A DNA stretch of 64,000 bases, from the NCBI GenBank assembly GCA_945861275.1, contig CAMATZ010000017.1, positions 9,753-73,752 on the forward strand, given 5' to 3'. Both the position numbers and the translations under genes were made by a program. Below are positions 27,027 through 31,178 of the stretch, piece by piece (position 1 is the first letter of the stretch; each line of letters begins with the position of its first letter). The DNA comes from Bordetella parapertussis (GTDB lineage: Bacteria > Pseudomonadota > Gammaproteobacteria > Burkholderiales > SG8-41). The notes under the pieces were generated by a model. It was not told where the DNA came from and searched no databases. It worked only from the letters and a program-made list of their open reading frames with translations.

Positions 27027-27120
27027 GCATGGTTGGCCGAGTGGCCAGAGTAACCAAGGACGCCTGCCTGTAGAGCAGGATTCGTAAAGAACAACGGTGG
27101 TTCAAATCCATCACCATCCA
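27027..27120 (+). tRNA. tRNA-Tyr(GUA)-like, class II; probably degenerate (C2:C71 mismatch, over-long D-loop)
   Basis: Hand fold: GAGTGGCCAGAG D-loop resembles tRNA-Tyr. Anticodon stem CCTGC/GCAGG, loop CTGTAGA, long variable arm, T-arm GGTGG-TTCAAAT-CCATC. Confidence 0.35.
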
Positions 27121-27122
27121 CC

Positions 27123-27199
27123 GCCCCGCTGGCGGAACAGGCATACGCGCCGGTCTTAGAAACCGGTTTTTCCGAGTTCGAATCTCGGGTGGGGCACCA
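27123..27199 (+). tRNA. tRNA-like, anticodon UAG (Leu) in a class-I (short variable arm) body
   Basis: Acceptor GCCCCGC/GTGGGGC, disc A, encoded CCA. Anticodon arm CCGGT-CTTAGAA-ACCGG. T-arm CCGAG-TTCGAAT-CTCGG. Confidence 0.5.
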
Positions 27200-27361
27200 A
27201 GTTTTTGCAGTAACCGCGCCGGCATAGCGACCGGGGAACGCGGATTGATCTTTAACAATATGGATGTGGTTAACAGTCTGTTGTCGCCCGGCGAGGCGGG
27301 CAGCCGTGTCTTCGGGCAGGGCGGCTTTGTTCCTCGCCGGGCAGGGCAGCAGATGTATTAA

Positions 27362-27437
27362 GCAGACATAGCTCAGTTGGAAGAGCGCGACGCCGCCAGC
27401 GTCGAGGCCGCGAGTTCGAGACTCGCTGTCTGCTCCA
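27362..27437 (+). tRNA. tRNA-Gly(GCC)-like with C32C33 in the anticodon loop (CCGCCAG)
   Basis: Near-identical architecture to bacterial tRNA-Gly(GCC). Perfect acceptor and T-arm. Loop TTGCCAA changed to CCGCCAG. Confidence 0.6.
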
Positions 27438-27440
27438 TAC

Positions 27441-27515
27441 GAACCGTTCGACTTCGGGTGAAGTCTCGAGCCTTTCAAGCTCGCAAGATGGGTTCAACTC
27501 CCATACGGTTCGCCA
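27441..27515 (+). tRNA. tRNA-Glu(UUC)
   Basis: Perfect 7-bp acceptor, loop CTTTCAA, 4-nt variable region, disc G, encoded CCA. Confidence 0.7.
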
Positions 27516-27521
27516 GTTTAA

Positions 27522-27609
27522 GGAAGGCAATCCCGGCGTGGGCTGGGCGCGGTCTTGAAAACCGATGGAGCCGCGAGGCTTGGAGTTCGACTCTACCTGC
27601 CTTCCGCCA
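27522..27609 (+). tRNA. tRNA-Ser(UGA)-like, class II; weak T-stem, possibly a pseudogene
   Basis: Acceptor GGAAGGC/GCCTTCC, anticodon loop CTTGAAA, long variable arm. T-stem has only 3 of 5 pairs. Confidence 0.4.
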
Positions 27610-27616
27610 AGAAATT

Positions 27617-27692
27617 ATCCCCGTAGCTCAGCGGATAGAGCAGCGGATTACGAATCCGCAGGCCGCAGGTTTAAATCCTGCCGGGGATGCCA
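27617..27692 (+). tRNA. tRNA-Arg(ACG)
   Basis: Acceptor ATCCCCG/CGGGGAT, D-arm GCTC-AGCGGATA-GAGC, loop TTACGAA, T-arm GCAGG-TTTAAAT-CCTGC, CCA. Confidence 0.7.
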
Positions 27693-27769
27693 GCATGCGA
27701 CGCGGCTGCAGTATGGCCCGATCGGACCTCACACCGATCGTACCGGCAACGGTAGCGTCGACCACAAAG

Positions 27770-27862
27770 GGAGAGATGGCCGAGCGGTTTAAGGCGCTTG
27801 CCTGCTAAGCAAGAGCTGTCTGAAAAGATGGCGCCAGGGTTCAAATCCCTGTCTCTCCGCCA
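27770..27862 (+). tRNA. tRNA-Ser(GCU), class II
   Basis: Acceptor GGAGAGA/TCTCTCC, D-arm GCC-GAGCGGTTTAA-GGC, loop CTGCTAA, 21-nt variable arm, CCA. Confidence 0.7.
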
Positions 27863-27876
27863 GCGTTGTTTTGCAG

Positions 27877-27947
27877 TGCCCTTGCCGCTCCTCCTCCGCG
27901 GCAAAGGGTGTTTTGCCGCGGCGCAATGCCGCGGTTTTTTTGGGGCG
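27877..27947 (+). terminator. two consecutive hairpins; the second (GCCGCGGCGCAATGCCGCGG followed by TTTTTTT) is a canonical rho-independent terminator
   Basis: GC-rich stems; the second is followed by a T7 run. Located inside the tRNA array. Confidence 0.5.
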
Positions 27948-28019
27948 TTAGCTTAGTAGGCCGAAAGCATCTGATTGTCGATCAGAAGATCGCGGGTTCA
28001 ACTCCCGCACGCCTCGCCA
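27942..28019 (+). tRNA. tRNA-Asp(GUC)-like
   Basis: Acceptor GGGGCGT/ACGCCTC, loop TTGTCGA, T-arm GCGGG-TTCAACT-CCCGC, disc G, CCA. Confidence 0.55.
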
Positions 28020-28035
28020 GTTTTCTGTCTGAACG

Positions 28036-30268: not shown

Positions 30269-30329
30269 GCATAGCGTTACCTGCGGGCAGCACGGCTGGC
30301 TTCGGCCGCCGGCGCTGCGCGCAGCCTAC

Positions 30330-30404
30330 AGACCAGTAGTTCAACGGCGAGAGCAGCGGTCTCCAAAACCGCGGATGGGAGTTCGAATCTCTCCTGGTCT
30401 GCCA
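30330..30404 (+). tRNA. tRNA-Trp(CCA)
   Basis: Acceptor AGACCAG/CTGGTCT, D-stem GTTC, loop CTCCAAA, T-arm GGGAG-TTCGAAT-CTCTC, disc G, CCA. Confidence 0.7.
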
Positions 30405-30411
30405 CTACCTT

Positions 30412-30489
30412 TCCGGTCTAGCTTTCAAGGTGAGAGCGCGCCGCTGTTAACGGCGAATGAGAGTGGTTCGATTCCACTGGCCGGAGCCA
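30412..30489 (+). tRNA. tRNA-Asn(GUU)
   Basis: U1-A72 acceptor TCCGGTC/GGCCGGA, anticodon arm CGCCG-CTGTTAA-CGGCG, T-arm AGTGG-TTCGATT-CCACT, disc G, CCA. Confidence 0.7.
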
Positions 30490-30501
30490 ATTTTTATCGA
30501 T

Positions 30502-30578
30502 GGTGGCCGTAGCTTAACTGGCAGAGTGCTTGGCTGTGAACCAAGCGGGTGCGCGTTCGAATCGCGTCGGTCACCCCA
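30502..30578 (+). tRNA. tRNA-His(GUG) with encoded G-1 and C73
   Basis: G-1 plus acceptor GTGGCCG/CGGTCAC, loop CTGTGAA, T-arm GCGCG-TTCGAAT-CGCGT, disc C, CCA. Confidence 0.7.
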
Positions 30579-30634
30579 TTATCAATTCCGGTTCATGCGA
30601 TATTTTTGTGAGTCGATAGCAACATCGTCGTTCT

Positions 30635-30676
30635 AGCGAAGCACGCCCCGGACCGCGATCCGGGGAGTGCTTCGCT
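30635..30676 (+). other. long stable hairpin (16-bp stem with one mismatch, 8-nt loop) between tRNA-His and tRNA-Lys, no T-run
   Basis: AGCGAAGCACGCCCCGG-accgcgat-CCGGGGAGTGCTTCGCT. Candidate processing or regulatory structure. Confidence 0.5.
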
Positions 30677-30690
30677 GGAATGACGAGTCA

Positions 30691-30765
30691 GGTCCTTGGC
30701 CGAGTGGCGAGGCAGCGGACTTTTAATCCGCGCGAGGCAGGTTCGATTCCTGCAGGGCCTACCAA
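30691..30765 (+). tRNA. tRNA-Lys(UUU)
   Basis: Acceptor AGGTCCT/AGGGCCT, loop CTTTTAA, T-arm GCAGG-TTCGATT-CCTGC, disc A, CCA. Confidence 0.65.
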
Positions 30766-30777
30766 TTCAGATCTGCA

Positions 30778-30854
30778 CCGCCGTAACTCAATTGGAATCA
30801 GAGTGCCGCGCTTCGAACGCGGAGGATGCGGGTTCGAGTCCTGCCGGCGGTACC
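30778..30854 (+). tRNA. tRNA-Arg(UCG)
   Basis: Perfect acceptor ACCGCCG/CGGCGGT, D-stem ACTC/GAGT, anticodon arm CCGCG-CTTCGAA-CGCGG, T-arm GCGGG-TTCGAGT-CCTGC, CCA. Confidence 0.65.
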
Positions 30855-31006
30855 AACCGGTTAACCACATCCAATCCTGCCGGAAACGGCAGACAGAATT
30901 CGTCGCAGAACGCATTGTCAACGGGTGAGGCTCTTGAGTTCCTCCCTGGTGCGCGCTTCCCGTGGTTGGAAGCGCGTATGCCGCGGTGCGGGAGCGACGG
31001 ATGTAC

Positions 31007-31080
31007 GCGGGTGTAGCTCAGTGGTAGAGCGCGGGCCGCAATGCCCGAGGTCGTGAGTTCGAATCTCATCACACGCGCCA
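31007..31080 (+). tRNA. tRNA-like gene with an apparent 6-nt anticodon loop (CGCAAT); specificity unclear (Cys/Ala-like body), possibly a pseudogene
   Basis: Canonical D-arm GCTC-AGTGGTA-GAGC, T-arm GTGAG-TTCGAAT-CTCAT and CCA. It is one nucleotide short in the anticodon arm. G4:A69 mismatch. Confidence 0.35.
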
Positions 31081-31154
31081 CTTTCCATGGCTCAGTGGTA
31101 GAGCAATCGGCACATAACCGATCGGTCGCGGGTTCGAATCCCGCTGGAAAACCA
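31081..31154 (+). tRNA. tRNA-Met(CAU)-like with A33 (loop CACATAA) and a C1:A72 mismatch
   Basis: D-arm GCTC-AGTGGTA-GAGC, anticodon arm ATCGG-CACATAA-CCGAT, T-arm GCGGG-TTCGAAT-CCCGC. Confidence 0.4.
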
Positions 31155-31178
31155 AAGCCCTGAAAAGGCTTTTGACTG
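31155..31178 (+). terminator. rho-independent terminator-like hairpin (AAGCC-ctgaaa-AGGCTTTTG) after the last tRNA
   Basis: Short stem followed by a TTTT run. Confidence 0.45.

What the first reader, a model, noticed from the sequence alone, without database searches (positions are those of the whole stretch)
27027..31178. Dense tRNA gene array (~24 tRNA-like genes, at least 17 amino-acid specificities) in a non-rRNA context
Within 4.1 kb I can fold about 24 tRNA-like units, some only 2-8 nt apart. Their anticodons are GUA, UAG, GCC, UUC, UGA, ACG, GCU, GUC, UCU, CAU (x2), UGU, GCA, GAA, UUG, GAU, UGG, CCA, GUU, GUG, UUU and UCG. That is a near-complete decoding set, arranged in sub-operons separated by terminators. 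Genuine housekeeping tRNA operons in proteobacteria are small. Arrays of this size are the hallmark of horizontally acquired tRNA arrays, usually phage- or ICE-borne. This array is flanked by a phage-type XRE regulator, an RtcB ligase, an SPFH protein and an HNH nuclease. The whole block may be an anti-tRNase / translational-takeover module of a kind not yet described for this lineage.
Basis: partly seen in the sequence, partly recalled or inferred. Interest (0 to 1): 0.8.

Follow-up and report, generated by a model that had tools for sequence, protein, structure and literature searches.

The report
Mobile tRNA array with RNA-repair genes
This is a real, horizontally spread block of about 22 spare tRNA genes built around an RNA-repair ligase, a membrane-scaffold-type protein and two tRNA look-alike RNAs; it is a new example of two already described kinds of system rather than a new kind.

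Summary

The block is a compact ~7 kb module: XRE repressor, tRNA array, RtcB, tRNA array, structured leader, two tRNA-like RNAs, SPFH/Band-7 protein, HNH nuclease. It sits among ordinary chromosomal metabolic genes, with no phage or ICE genes in the 64 kb.

Homologous modules occur in other Proteobacteria at unrelated chromosomal sites. They range from a minimal tRNA-like–SPFH–RtcB form to full arrays.

The module combines two described kinds:
- Horizontally spread long tRNA arrays ('L-arrays'), which are linked to RtcB and HNH in cyanobacteria.
- The RtcB–Band-7–'b7a-tRNA' RNA-repair system.

Orthologous array tRNAs are 82-97% identical where RtcB four-fold sites are only 57-61% identical, so most genes are under purifying selection.

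The 'deviant' members fall into three classes:
- Conserved oddities: C33 in tRNA-Ile(GAU) in six independent bacterial arrays and in viral contigs, C33 in Gly, G37 in Phe, and short Leu.
- Window-specific decay: Tyr, Thr, a truncated Leu, and Cys split by a 269-nt palindromic element.
- Two terminal tRNA-like RNAs with hypervariable anticodon loops.

The function is inferred, not shown: inducible tRNA back-up and repair.

The parts
26332..26673 (-). XRE/Cro-C1-type HTH regulator, transcribed divergently from the array. Gene callers place the start at about 26586, giving 84 aa.
   Evidence: Pfam HTH_26, E=5.6e-8. Homologues sit in the same position in L001, L002, L003, L083 and L087. Called as 84 aa in L090/L091.
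26626..26690 (+). Operator-like overlapping palindromes (TTGCATAATATGCAA and ATGCAAAATATTTGCAT), followed by a sigma-70-like promoter (TTGACA-17-TAAAGT).
   Evidence: Sequence read. Promoter scan scored 10/12. The function is inferred only.
26977..27015 (+). Conserved terminator-like hairpin (AGCCCGGA...TCCGGGCT followed by TTTTTGTTTT), 12 nt before the first tRNA gene.
   Evidence: Sequence read. The same 40-nt element lies upstream of the arrays in L002, L083/L084 and L087, and beside the XRE gene in L002 and L003.
27027..27122 (+). tRNA-Tyr(GUA)-like gene, probably impaired.
   Evidence: Rfam score is 33.1 bits, against 46.8 for the L002 orthologue. It has a C2·C71 mismatch and an 8-nt D-loop insertion relative to L002 and L087.
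27123..27199 (+). tRNA-Leu(UAG) with a class-I-size body (77 nt, 4-nt variable loop, A73, encoded CCA).
   Evidence: Short Leu genes also occur in L001, L002, L005, L044, L083, L087 and the Anabaena trn operon.
27200..27361 (+). Conserved non-tRNA spacer between Leu and Gly. It contains TGGATGTGGTTAAC.
   Evidence: 78-83% identical in L001, L002 and L083/L084 (a 65-nt stretch also matches L087). The motif recurs inverted at 30860-30873.
27362..27437 (+). tRNA-Gly(GCC) with C33 (anticodon loop CCGCCAG).
   Evidence: The same loop is present in the L002 orthologue, which is 95% identical.
27441..27515 (+). tRNA-Glu(UUC).
27522..27609 (+). tRNA-Ser(UGA), class II.
   Evidence: Rfam score is 46.5 bits, best to the tRNA-Sec model. 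ARAGORN calls it at a relaxed threshold.
27617..27692 (+). tRNA-Arg(ACG).
   Evidence: 67.3 bits.
27770..27862 (+). tRNA-Ser(GCU), class II.
   Evidence: Four compensatory pairs relative to L002.
27915..27941 (+). Intrinsic terminator-like hairpin with a T7 run inside the array.
27942..28019 (+). tRNA-Asp(GUC).
   Evidence: 68.5 bits.
28025..28071 (+). Orphan 3' half of a tRNA-Leu(UAA)-type gene (a truncated gene).
   Evidence: Window 28034-28233 aligns to L002 9138-9341, which spans the 3' half of L002 Leu(UAA) at 9098-9175. It resembles a class II 3' half (family D14).
28073..28150 (+). tRNA-Arg(UCU).
28158..28233 (+). tRNA-Met(CAU), elongator-type, with T-loop ATCGTAG.
   Evidence: Orthologues in L002 and L005 have canonical T-loops.
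28241..28317 (+). tRNA-Thr(UGU) with C33 and a weak T stem, probably decaying.
   Evidence: Rfam score is 46.6 bits. Orthologues or homologues in L001, L002, L004, L005 and L083 all have U33.
28323..28666 (+). tRNA-Cys(GCA) interrupted in its variable loop.
   Evidence: ARAGORN calls Cys once the insert is removed. The minimum-free-energy fold keeps the cloverleaf, with the insert forming a giant extra arm.
28366..28634 (.). 269-nt near-perfect palindromic (MITE-like) insertion element.
   Evidence: Inverted repeats I1, I2 and I5. Folding energy is -175 kcal/mol. An 86%-identical copy lies between Asn and His in L001. Contig L081 breaks inside it.
28674..28749 (+). tRNA-Phe(GAA) with U32 and G37 (loop TTGAAGA) and T-loop CTCGATA.
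   Evidence: G37 and the odd T-loop are conserved in L001, L082, L086 and L087. G37 is also present in the Anabaena and Methylibium arrays.
28762..28838 (+). tRNA-Gln(UUG).
28847..28923 (+). tRNA-Ile(GAU) with C33 (loop CCGATAA) and G54 (T-loop TGCGAAT).
   Evidence: The loop is identical in L001, L004, L005, L088 and L089, and in viral contigs L098/L099.
28930..29007 (+). tRNA-Pro(UGG).
29048..30268 (+). RtcB 3'-phosphate/5'-OH RNA ligase, embedded in the array.
   Evidence: Pfam RtcB, E=2e-126, full-length match.
30330..30404 (+). tRNA-Trp(CCA).
30412..30489 (+). tRNA-Asn(GUU).
30503..30578 (+). tRNA-His(GUG) with an encoded G-1 and C73.
30625..30686 (.). 62-nt palindrome (31-nt arms, 87% complementary, no loop) between His and Lys.
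   Evidence: I3. Fold energy for the 111-nt stretch 30579-30689 that contains it is -57.6 kcal/mol. No copies were found in the other loci.
30690..30764 (+). tRNA-Lys(UUU).
30777..30855 (+). tRNA-Arg(UCG).
30911..30990 (+). Conserved structured leader RNA (an outer stem enclosing two hairpins), upstream of the tRNA-like pair.
   Evidence: Alignment of 7 loci. RNAalifold predicts 39 pairs, 9 of them with compensatory changes.
31007..31080 (+). tRNA-like RNA 1. It has a full cloverleaf and GCCA tail, but a 6-nt 'anticodon' loop.
   Evidence: Rfam score is 57.1 bits. In 10 loci the loop varies from 4 to about 15 nt, including a GNRA-type loop. All 7 acceptor-stem pairs show compensatory changes.
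31081..31153 (+). tRNA-like RNA 2 (b7a-tRNA type). Anticodon is CAU with A33, a C1·A72 mismatch and no proper CCA.
   Evidence: The body is nearly invariant across loci, but the anticodon is CAU, GAU, UAU, AAU, UGA, CGG, AAC or AUG. The acceptor stem shrinks to 3 bp in distant members.
31155..31176 (+). Conserved hairpin (terminator or processing site) after the tRNA-like pair.
   Evidence: Alignment. GCC/GGC changes to TCC/GGA in L087.
31427..32572 (+). SPFH/Band-7 protein. The conserved start is probably at 31430. No N-terminal hydrophobic segment is visible.
   Evidence: Pfam Band_7, E=1.5e-26. Translation, start context. It co-occurs with RtcB in L001, L002, L004, L005, L043 and 20+ Stenotrophomonas genomes.
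32621..33217 (+). HNH endonuclease (gene callers: 187 aa, starting at about 32654).
   Evidence: Pfam HNH_5/HNH. It is 47% identical to the HNH next to a 27-tRNA array on the Methylibium PM1 plasmid. It is 33% identical to the HNH next to the Anabaena trn operon.

Best explanation
**What it is.** The locus is a self-contained, horizontally mobile 'tRNA back-up and repair' module of about 7 kb (26.3-33.2 kb), inserted in an ordinary chromosomal region. It fuses two known kinds of system.
- A long, non-periodic, horizontally transferred tRNA array ('L-array').
- An RtcB–SPFH/Band-7–tRNA-like-RNA repair system.

**Proposed working (inferred, not shown).**
1. The divergently transcribed XRE repressor keeps the module silent.
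2. When translation is impaired or tRNAs are cut, the module is expressed. The cutting agents could be toxin-antitoxin RNases, colicin- or CDI-type tRNases, or phage-defence anticodon nucleases.
3. The array then supplies a near-complete spare tRNA set: 18 amino acids, 16 of them from apparently intact genes.
4. RtcB reseals tRNA halves that carry 2',3'-cyclic phosphate and 5'-OH ends.
5. The SPFH protein works with the two tRNA-like RNAs, and possibly the structured leader, as a scaffold, sensor or decoy for the repair reaction.
6. The HNH nuclease most likely promotes spread of the block, as a homing-type endonuclease.

**State of the genes.** Most array genes are maintained by selection. 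A few in this particular copy are damaged: Tyr, Thr, Cys and a truncated Leu.
For: **Shown here: anatomy and context.**
- 23 tRNA-shaped genes plus 1 fragment lie on one strand, with RtcB inside the array and XRE, SPFH and HNH at the edges.
- The scanned ORFs elsewhere in the 64-kb window encode metabolic or housekeeping proteins, with no mobile-element genes among them.

**Shown here: the module recurs elsewhere.**
- Versions are found in L001, L002, L004 (Povalibacter uvarum DSM 26723), L005, L083 and L087. The flanks of L001, L002, L004 and L005 were checked and are unrelated.
- A minimal tRNA-like–SPFH–RtcB form occurs in Stenotrophomonas and in L043.
- L003 is a decayed version without tRNAs.

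**Shown here: selection.**
- Orthologous array tRNAs are 82-97% identical to L001 and L002. RtcB four-fold degenerate sites are only 0.61 and 0.57 identical to the same loci.
- Stems carry many compensatory changes.
- The two tRNA-like RNAs and the leader show covariation.

**Shown here: link to other arrays.**
- The HNH is homologous to the HNH genes beside the Methylibium plasmid array and the Anabaena trn operon.
- Array-specific traits are shared with the Anabaena array: the Phe loop TTGAAGA and short Leu genes.

**From the literature.**
- L-arrays spread by horizontal transfer. HNH and rtcB are recurrent neighbours.
- The Anabaena array is silent, is induced by translation inhibitors, is charged and found on polysomes, and aids survival (PMC8421152).
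- The Anabaena TrcR repressor regulon contains the array, rtcB, the HNH gene and a slipin (SPFH) gene (PMC10272220). The window holds the same four components physically linked.
- RtcB next to a Band-7 protein and a predicted 'b7a-tRNA' was described by Burroughs & Aravind 2016, as summarised in bioRxiv 10.1101/312249.
Against: - There is no expression, charging or ligation data for this organism.
- The regulator here is XRE-type, not the ribbon-helix-helix TrcR. The operator and promoter are only pattern matches.
- A strong terminator-like hairpin lies between the putative promoter and the first tRNA gene, so how the array is transcribed is unclear.
- Redundancy with a housekeeping tRNA set cannot be checked from 64 kb. 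Only one other tRNA, Arg-CCU, is visible in the window.
- Four members are damaged in this copy, so part of the array may already be non-functional.
- PADLOC has no model for the module.
- The primary paper on the Band-7 system could not be read.
Confidence: 0.65

Rival explanations
1. The block is a remnant or cargo of a phage or integrative element, and serves translational take-over or anti-defence. The element brings nuclease-resistant tRNAs and a ligase so that its own genes can be translated when host defences cut tRNAs.
For: - RtcB relatives at 63% identity lie among 13-14 tRNA genes in large IMG/VR viral contigs L098, L099 and L106.
- L098 and L099 carry the same C33 tRNA-Ile(GAU).
- XRE and HNH genes are typical of mobile DNA.
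- Phage tRNAs with anticodon-loop changes have been proposed to escape anticodon nucleases (PMC10264068).
Against: - No phage, integrase or conjugation gene was found in the ORFs scanned across the 64-kb window, or in the flanking ORFs scanned in L001, L002, L004 and L005.
- There is no near-identical DNA in the phage or plasmid collections.
- The SPFH partner and the tRNA-like pair were not found in viral contigs.
- The module is conserved as a compact chromosomal unit across genera.
Confidence: 0.15
2. The array is a decaying, functionally neutral relic. The tRNA genes were acquired once and are now drifting into pseudogenes. The non-canonical positions are simply damage.
For: - Four members of this copy are visibly impaired:
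  - Tyr has an acceptor mismatch and a D-loop insertion.
  - Thr has C33 and a weak T stem.
  - Leu(UAA) is truncated.
  - Cys is split by a 269-nt element.
- L003 has lost all its tRNAs.
- Published L-arrays are poorly expressed under standard conditions (PMC8421152).
Against: - Orthologous tRNAs are far more conserved than synonymous sites of the neighbouring genes.
- Compensatory stem changes are frequent.
- The same 'defects' (C33 in Ile, G37 in Phe, short Leu) recur in independent arrays from different classes and in phage. Drift does not predict this.
Confidence: 0.1
3. The array is an ordinary housekeeping tRNA operon. It would be the organism's main source of these isoacceptors and only happens to lie next to RNA-repair genes.
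For: - Most members score well above the Rfam threshold (44-68 bits) and encode CCA.
- The rest of the genome's tRNA set cannot be seen from this window.
Against: - The block has a patchy distribution in unrelated genomic contexts.
- It carries non-canonical positions that housekeeping genes lack.
- In sister locus L001, a canonical tRNA-Phe(GAA) with loop CTGAAAA (72.6 bits) lies about 8 kb downstream of the module. The array's own Phe gene has loop TTGAAGC and scores 40 bits.
- Ala and Val are missing, and Cys and Tyr are damaged.
Confidence: 0.05

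Closest known systems
L-arrays (long horizontally transferred tRNA gene arrays), type example the trn operon of Anabaena/Nostoc sp. PCC 7120 on pCC7120delta (PMC8421152, PMC10272220)
   Same: - Both have 20 or more same-strand, tightly packed, non-periodic tRNA genes covering most amino acids.
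- A homologous HNH endonuclease lies next to the array (33% identity).
- rtcB is a recurrent partner.
- A repressor is expected to keep the array silent.
- Gene-level quirks are shared: the Phe loop TTGAAGA and 75-78-nt Leu genes.
- Some members are pseudogenes.
   Different: - RtcB here is embedded in the array.
- The SPFH gene and two tRNA-like RNAs are physically attached. In Anabaena, rtcB and the slipin gene are elsewhere on the chromosome and are joined to the array only by the TrcR regulon.
- The regulator here is XRE-type, not ribbon-helix-helix.
- Gene order differs.
- The location is chromosomal in a proteobacterium, not a cyanobacterial plasmid.
RtcB–Band-7(SPFH)–b7a-tRNA RNA-repair system (Burroughs & Aravind 2016, NAR 44:8525; known to me only through bioRxiv 10.1101/312249 and memory of the abstract)
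   Same: - RtcB is adjacent to a Band-7/SPFH protein and to a tRNA-resembling non-coding RNA placed just upstream of the Band-7 gene.
- The minimal form is seen in 20+ Stenotrophomonas genomes.
   Different: - Here there are two tandem tRNA-like RNAs plus a structured leader.
- The system is merged with a full tRNA array, an XRE gene and an HNH gene.
- I could not check whether the primary paper already reported the hypervariable anticodon loops or the array-containing versions.
rsr–yrlBA–rtcBA operon of Salmonella (Ro60 with Y RNAs that carry a tRNA-like domain) (PMC7790460; bioRxiv 10.1101/312249)
   Same: - An RtcB ligase is paired with a scaffold protein and a tRNA-mimicking RNA.
- The operon is induced by tRNA damage.
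- The tRNA-like RNA has been proposed as a cofactor or as a competitive inhibitor of an anticodon nuclease.
   Different: - The scaffold here is SPFH, not Ro60.
- There is no RtcA or RtcR in the window.
- Rfam YrlA hits are only weak tRNA-like matches (21-27 bits against a threshold of 69).
- The Salmonella operon has no tRNA array.
tRNA array units of Acidithiobacillus (on an integrative element) and other bacteria (PMC4758250)
   Same: The window meets the published definition: at least 20 tRNA genes at 2 or more per kb. These arrays are proteobacterial, supernumerary and horizontally acquired.
   Different: Those arrays sit in an integrative-conjugative element. The paper mentions no ligase or endonuclease. 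No sequence relationship was tested here.
Phage tRNA clusters with anticodon-loop changes proposed to resist host anticodon nucleases (PMC10264068)
   Same: - Both are large tRNA sets whose anticodon loops differ from the canonical housekeeping pattern (compared here only for Phe, in sister locus L001).
- RtcB-linked tRNA clusters exist in viral contigs, and those in L098/L099 share the C33 Ile gene.
   Different: The window's copy is chromosomal and has no phage genes. Resistance to any nuclease has not been tested for these tRNAs.

Membership tests
tRNA array unit (Tran et al. 2016, PMC4758250) | At least 20 tRNA genes in one region. | tested here: met
   There are 23 tRNA-shaped genes plus 1 fragment. 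21 remain if the two terminal tRNA-like RNAs are excluded.
tRNA array unit (Tran et al. 2016, PMC4758250) | Density of at least 2 tRNA genes per kb. | tested here: met
   23 genes in 4127 bp gives 5.6 per kb, even with the 1.2-kb RtcB gene inside.
L-array (Santamaria-Gomez et al. 2021, PMC8421152) | A long run of same-orientation tRNA genes with short intergenic distances (a potential operon), not periodic. | tested here: met
   All genes are on the + strand, with gaps of 0-160 nt apart from RtcB and the insert. Repeat families show only generic tRNA similarity of 60-75%, with no regular period.
L-array (Santamaria-Gomez et al. 2021, PMC8421152) | Patchy distribution and spread by horizontal transfer. 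| tested here: met
   Homologous modules lie in unrelated genomic contexts in several proteobacterial lineages, and related RtcB-tRNA clusters occur in viral contigs. No empty site was found for this genome.
L-array (Santamaria-Gomez et al. 2021, PMC8421152) | Contributes supernumerary genes that are redundant with a housekeeping set. | not testable with these tools
   Only 64 kb of the genome is available. Indirect support comes from sister locus L001, which has a canonical Phe(GAA) gene in addition to the array's Phe gene.
L-array (Santamaria-Gomez et al. 2021, PMC8421152) | Linked HNH homing-type endonuclease and RNA-processing genes such as rtcB. | tested here: met
   HNH is at 32621-33217 and is homologous to the Anabaena and Methylibium array-linked HNH genes. 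RtcB lies inside the array.
L-array (Santamaria-Gomez et al. 2021, PMC8421152) | Silent under normal growth and induced by translational stress. | not testable with these tools
   This needs expression data. Only an XRE gene, palindromes and a promoter-like site are seen.
RtcB–Band-7–b7a-tRNA repair system (Burroughs & Aravind 2016, via 10.1101/312249) | An RtcB-family ligase gene. | tested here: met
   Pfam RtcB, E=2e-126, covering the full model.
RtcB–Band-7–b7a-tRNA repair system (Burroughs & Aravind 2016, via 10.1101/312249) | An adjacent Band-7/SPFH-domain protein. | tested here: met
   Pfam Band_7, E=1.5e-26, at 31427-32572. The RtcB–SPFH linkage is conserved across many genomes.
RtcB–Band-7–b7a-tRNA repair system (Burroughs & Aravind 2016, via 10.1101/312249) | A tRNA-resembling non-coding RNA next to the Band-7 gene. 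| tested here: met
   Two tRNA-like genes at 31007-31153 lie 274 nt upstream of the SPFH gene. Their position is conserved, they show covariation, and their anticodon loops are non-decoding or variable. Whether they are the same RNA family as the published b7a-tRNA could not be checked against the primary paper.
Prophage or integrative-conjugative element cargo | Integrase, phage structural genes or conjugation genes in the neighbourhood, or insertion next to a tRNA gene with flanking repeats. | tested here: not met
   None of about 50 ORFs scanned (of 59 picked) across the 64 kb has such a domain. The nearest lone tRNA, Arg-CCU at 38161-38236, is 5 kb away and is flanked by Sel1-repeat and acyl-CoA dehydrogenase genes.
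Known anti-phage defence systems (PADLOC-DB v2) | Proteins that match models of a catalogued system. | tested here: not met
   XRE, RtcB and SPFH have no hit. HNH gives only generic nuclease-domain matches.

The most novel reading that the evidence does not exclude
The conserved departures from universal tRNA rules are adaptations in an arms race with tRNA-cutting toxins. These departures are C33 in tRNA-Ile(GAU) across six independent bacterial arrays and in viral contigs L098/L099, C33 in Gly, G37 with unusual T-loops in Phe, and class-I-size Leu. On this reading the array supplies cleavage-resistant substitutes. The two SPFH-linked tRNA-like RNAs have ultra-conserved bodies, but their anticodon loops change from genome to genome. 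They would act as decoys or specificity sensors tuned to the local nuclease, presenting damaged or bait RNA to RtcB on an SPFH scaffold.
Probability: 0.25. Interest if true: 0.75.

Novelty: new variant of a known kind. Interest (0 to 1): 0.5.

Why it matters
The roles of long tRNA arrays and of the Band-7/tRNA-like RNA repair system are both still unclear.

This module puts four components into one 7-kb block under one local regulator. In Anabaena the same four components are scattered and joined only by a common repressor: the array, RtcB, an SPFH/slipin protein and HNH. The physical linkage argues that they work together.

Versions exist in cultured strains, which gives a compact and transferable unit for experiments. 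Examples are Povalibacter uvarum DSM 26723 and, in minimal form, Stenotrophomonas maltophilia.

Two features offer concrete handles on whether such modules counter tRNA-targeting toxins. One is the conserved C33 in an elongator tRNA. The other is the hypervariable anticodon loops on otherwise invariant tRNA-like scaffolds.

The practical consequence for annotation is that not every 'tRNA' called in such arrays is a decoding tRNA.

Tried and rejected
1. **Near-identical DNA in plasmid and phage collections.** Nothing beyond short RtcB segments was found.
2. **PADLOC and NCBIfam naming of the four proteins.** Nothing specific came back.
3. **Empty-site search to define the island's boundaries.**
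   - Exact look-ups of the flanking peptidase and gluconolactonase returned only the same arrangement.
   - Homologues of the gluconolactonase at 80-82% identity sit in non-syntenic contexts.
   - No boundary repeats could be defined.
4. **Idea: the last tRNA-like RNA, with its C1·A72 mismatch and variable NAU anticodon, is a private initiator matched to a non-AUG start of the SPFH gene.** Rejected, because all four SPFH genes start with ATG after the same ribosome-binding site.
5. **Idea: a T-box-like specifier triplet complementary to the variable anticodon lies somewhere from 330 nt upstream to 1.5 kb downstream.** No matching column exists. Loop-loop complementarity between the two tRNA-like RNAs was also not seen by eye.
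6. **The tRNA-like T-arm pattern in viral contigs.** No match. Only one weak, partial SPFH match was found in viral contigs.
7. **Target-site duplication of the 269-nt palindromic element.** It could not be resolved from the two copies.
8. **The primary paper on the Band-7 system (PMC5062991).** It is not held, so comparison with the published b7a-tRNA rests on a secondary citation.
9. **The Anabaena operonic tRNA-Ile(GAU), checked for C33.** The gene was not found in the fetched stretch.

Full report

Yes. ARAGORN finds 19 tRNA genes on the + strand between 27123 and 31153. Rfam's tRNA model at its curated threshold also finds 19, with a slightly different membership. It adds 27027-27120 (33 bits) and 28241-28314 (46.6 bits).

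A permissive Rfam run and a relaxed ARAGORN run add Asn (30412), Glu (27440) and Ser-UGA (27522).

When the 269-nt stretch 28366-28634 is removed in silico, ARAGORN calls tRNA-Cys(GCA) starting at 28323. The minimum-free-energy fold of the whole 343 nt keeps the cloverleaf, with the insert forming an enormous extra arm at the variable-loop position.

The 'orphan 3' fragment' is at 28025-28071. It aligns with the 3' half of tRNA-Leu(UAA) in the related locus L002.

The total is 23 tRNA-shaped genes plus one fragment in 4127 bp (5.6 per kb). All but the Tyr-like gene and the last tRNA-like gene encode CCA.

All the hand-folded peculiarities are reproduced by ARAGORN:
- C33 in Gly, Thr and Ile.
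- A33 in the last CAU gene.
- A 6-nt loop in 31007-31080.
- T-loops ATCGTAG, TGCGAAT and CTCGATA.
- A 77-nt Leu(UAG).

- RtcB lies inside the array.
- Only one convincing internal terminator exists (27915-27941), and terminator-like sites are not enriched over shuffles.
- Ala and Val are absent.

**2. Surroundings**

Pfam assigns the following:
- 26332-26673 (-) to a Cro/C1-type HTH regulator.
- 29048-30268 to RtcB (E=2e-126).
- 31427-32572 to SPFH/Band-7.
- 32621-33217 to an HNH endonuclease.

The ORFs scanned elsewhere in the 64 kb (about 50 of the 59 picked) encode chromosomal metabolic or housekeeping proteins. They include an S15 peptidase, PrpD, MFS and ABC transporters, gluconolactonase, CoA-transferase, many TctC receptors, acyl-CoA dehydrogenase, MlaA, gamma-glutamyltranspeptidase and AccA. 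No integrase, phage or conjugation domain is present.

GC content does not stand out. The module is therefore a small island of about 7 kb, not part of a recognisable prophage or ICE.

The host is an uncultured proteobacterium. A flanking CoA-transferase clusters at 90% or more with a protein from an 'Acetobacteraceae bacterium' MAG. The closest module relatives are labelled beta-/Proteobacteria.

**3. Related loci**

A scan of one genome per species with the RtcB protein gave 80 loci.
- The closest relatives all carry tRNA arrays around RtcB. These are L001 and L002 (92% and 91% identity), L005 (71%) and L004, Povalibacter uvarum DSM 26723 (67%). The more distant L044 does too.
- XRE and SPFH homologues occupy the same positions in L001 and L002.
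- SPFH is next to RtcB in L004, L005 and L043, and in more than 20 Stenotrophomonas genomes. In those genomes the unit is just one tRNA-like gene, SPFH and RtcB.
- None of the window's flanking proteins is found next to these modules.
- The flanks of L001, L002, L004 and L005 are unrelated to each other and lack mobile-element genes. L004 lies beside a type I restriction specificity gene.
- L003 retains XRE, a 59-nt piece of Leu(UAG), RtcB and a stub of SPFH, but no tRNA. So arrays can be lost.
- Viral contigs L098, L099 and L106 carry an RtcB at 63% identity amid 13-14 loosely spaced tRNA genes, but no SPFH.

**4. Link to described arrays**

The HNH protein is 47% identical to an HNH gene on the Methylibium petroleiphilum PM1 megaplasmid. 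That gene directly follows 27 tRNA genes. The HNH protein is also 33% identical (E=3e-14) to the HNH gene next to the trn operon on Nostoc/Anabaena PCC 7120 plasmid delta.

The Anabaena array shares gene-level quirks with the window:
- An identical tRNA-Phe anticodon loop, TTGAAGA (U32, G37).
- Four tRNA-Leu genes of only 75-78 nt.

What the literature says:
- Santamaria-Gomez et al. (PMC8421152) define such arrays as 'L-arrays'. These are long, non-periodic and spread by horizontal transfer, and are present in all proteobacterial classes. HNH and rtcB are recurrent neighbours.
- The Anabaena array is silent and is induced by translation inhibitors. 23 of its 26 tRNAs are charged, and those tested are on polysomes. 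The array favours survival.
- The operonic Phe(GAA) and Ile(GAU) migrate aberrantly on acid gels.
- The later TrcR paper (PMC10272220) lists, among the most derepressed genes in the repressor mutant, rtcB (all3526), the HNH gene (all8564) and a slipin/SPFH gene (alr0740); the trn operon is also under TrcR control.

The window therefore holds, physically linked, the four components that Anabaena joins only by regulation.

**5. The two terminal 'tRNAs' are tRNA-like RNAs**

Aligning 31007-31153 with L001, L002 and L005 shows two almost invariant bodies. Their anticodon loops are the variable part.
- In the last gene the loop is CACATAA, CTGATAA, CTTATAA or CTAATAA, so position 34 takes all four bases.
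- Among 1957 aligned columns around it, only 10 show four different bases in these four loci.

A metagenome scan with the T-arm pattern added eight more copies.
- The last gene then shows anticodons CAU, GAU, UAU, AAU, UGA, CGG, AAC and AUG on the same D, anticodon and T stems.
- Its conserved acceptor pairing shrinks to 3 bp, and it has no regular CCA.
- The penultimate gene keeps a 7-bp acceptor stem in which every pair shows compensatory changes. Its 'anticodon' loop, however, is 4 to about 15 nt, including a GNRA-type loop.
- In Stenotrophomonas the single SPFH-linked tRNA-like gene has loops TCCGTAA, TCCCTAA, TCCTGAT or TCCTTAA in closely related genomes.

[quoted passage not shown] That prediction is summarised in bioRxiv 10.1101/312249. 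The primary paper is not in the library.

An 80-nt structured element (30911-30990) precedes the pair and shows covariation in seven loci. A conserved hairpin follows the pair.

They are not decaying tRNAs.

**6. Are the array genes functional?**

Between the window and L001 or L002, RtcB four-fold degenerate sites are only 0.61 and 0.57 identical. Against L005 the figure is 0.45. True orthologous tRNAs are 0.82-0.97 identical to L001 and L002. Against L005 the best-conserved orthologues (Ile, Lys, Gln) are 0.90-0.94 identical, while others fall to 0.72-0.83, still above 0.45. Stems carry many compensatory changes. Most genes are therefore under purifying selection.

The deviations sort into three classes.

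(a) Conserved deviations:
- tRNA-Ile(GAU) has loop CCGATAA in the window, L001, L004, L005, L088 and L089, and in viral contigs L098/L099. Most of these also have G54.
- Gly(GCC) has CCGCCAG in the window and in L002.
- Phe has G37 and a CTCGATA-type T-loop in five arrays, and G37 also in the Anabaena and Methylibium arrays.
- Short Leu genes occur in most arrays.

(b) Window-specific damage:
- Thr has C33 and a weak T stem, while its homologues have U33.
- The Tyr-like gene has a C2·C71 mismatch and an 8-nt D-loop insertion.
- Leu(UAA) is truncated.
- Cys is split by the palindromic element.

(c) The two tRNA-like RNAs described in section 5.

**7. Mechanism**

- Shown: the anatomy, the conserved linkage, selection on the RNAs, and homology to array-linked HNH genes.
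- Inferred from the families:
  - The XRE protein probably represses the module through the palindromes next to a sigma-70-like promoter at 26626-26690.
  - The array tops up or replaces damaged tRNAs.
  - SPFH with the tRNA-like RNAs acts as a scaffold, sensor or decoy.
  - HNH promotes spread.
- Unresolved: a strong conserved terminator-like hairpin (26977-27015) lies just before the first tRNA gene. How transcription enters the array is unknown.

**8. Novelty and verdict**

The array is real and well above chance. It belongs to known kinds: it meets the tRNA array unit and L-array definitions, and it has the parts of the RtcB–Band-7–tRNA-like repair system.

To my knowledge, and within what I could read, two things have not been laid out before:
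- The compact fusion of both systems under an XRE regulator in Proteobacteria.
- The comparative evidence for conserved C33 and G37 tRNAs and for hypervariable loops on the tRNA-like scaffolds.

I rate it a new variant of a known kind, of moderate interest. The nuclease-escape and decoy reading is attractive but untested.

Noticed in passing
window 28366-28634; L001 7590-7858; L081 1-126: A 269-nt near-perfect palindromic, MITE-like element (fold about -175 kcal/mol) is inserted in the variable loop of tRNA-Cys. An 86%-identical copy lies between Asn and His in L001. A metagenome contig of the same genome breaks inside it, which suggests it is repeated. No target-site duplication could be defined.
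   Followed up: partly
window 30911-30990: A conserved 80-nt structured RNA (an outer stem enclosing two hairpins) lies upstream of the two SPFH-linked tRNA-like genes. It is conserved in at least seven loci, and 9 of its pairs show compensatory changes. It matches no Rfam family.
   Followed up: partly
window 30625-30686: A 62-nt palindrome (31-nt arms, 87% complementary, no loop) lies between tRNA-His and tRNA-Lys. It was not found in the related loci.
   Followed up: partly
window 27261-27274 (+) and 30860-30873 (-): An exact 14-nt motif, TGGATGTGGTTAAC, occurs twice in opposite orientation, in two conserved non-tRNA spacers of the array. The chance expectation is 0.26 matches in the window at up to 2 mismatches. 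It could be a regulator or recombination site.
   Followed up: no
window 27200-27361: The 162-nt spacer between Leu(UAG) and Gly(GCC) is 78-83% identical in L001, L002 and L083/L084; a 65-nt stretch also matches L087. That is as conserved as the genes around it. Its function is unknown; it could hold an internal promoter or a small RNA.
   Followed up: no
window 26977-27015; L002 6970-7006 and 7650-7689; L003 9608-9649: A conserved terminator-like hairpin precedes the first tRNA gene. In L002 a second direct copy lies just beyond the other end of the XRE gene, so the XRE cassette is bracketed by the same 40-nt element.
   Followed up: no
window 31177-31200 and related loci: A conserved motif, CTGTAGTACCCGGGGCCGGCTTCGG, follows the hairpin after the tRNA-like pair, in the leader of the SPFH gene. 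TGTAGTA-type repeats are also visible in the Anabaena trn promoter region (L097 3125-3175). The resemblance may be coincidental.
   Followed up: no
L003 9541-11578: A degenerate version of the module: XRE, a 59-nt remnant of tRNA-Leu(UAG), an intact RtcB and a 40-residue stub of SPFH, with no tRNA genes.
   Followed up: partly
L001 777-2447 (-): A sigma-54-dependent activator (AAA+ domain plus HTH_8, with an unassigned 247-residue N-terminus) lies 1.7 kb from the XRE gene of the sister module. It could be an RtcR-like regulator.
   Followed up: no
L098/L099 2584-2658; L106 3537-3612: Large viral contigs that carry the related RtcB also encode a tRNA with anticodon CUA (an amber-suppressor type) among their tRNA genes.
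   Followed up: no
L097 3596-3679: Inside the Anabaena trn operon, a stretch matches the tmRNA model weakly (31.9 bits, threshold 47). It may be another tRNA-like, non-decoding member of an L-array.
   Followed up: no
window 44587-45585: There is a second, ordinary stomatin-type SPFH gene (Band_7 plus Band_7_C) 12 kb from the module. It is unrelated to the RtcB-linked one.
   Followed up: no
window 38161-38236 (-): A lone tRNA-Arg(CCU) scoring 61 bits, with no neighbouring integrase. It is presumably a housekeeping gene, and its anticodon is absent from the array.
   Followed up: partly
window 6-686, 9191-10222, 12501-13502, 14306-15274, 15558-16538, 35767-36798: At least six TctC/Bug-family periplasmic receptor paralogues occur within 64 kb. 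This is a hallmark of certain Burkholderiales and Acetobacteraceae genomes.
   Followed up: no
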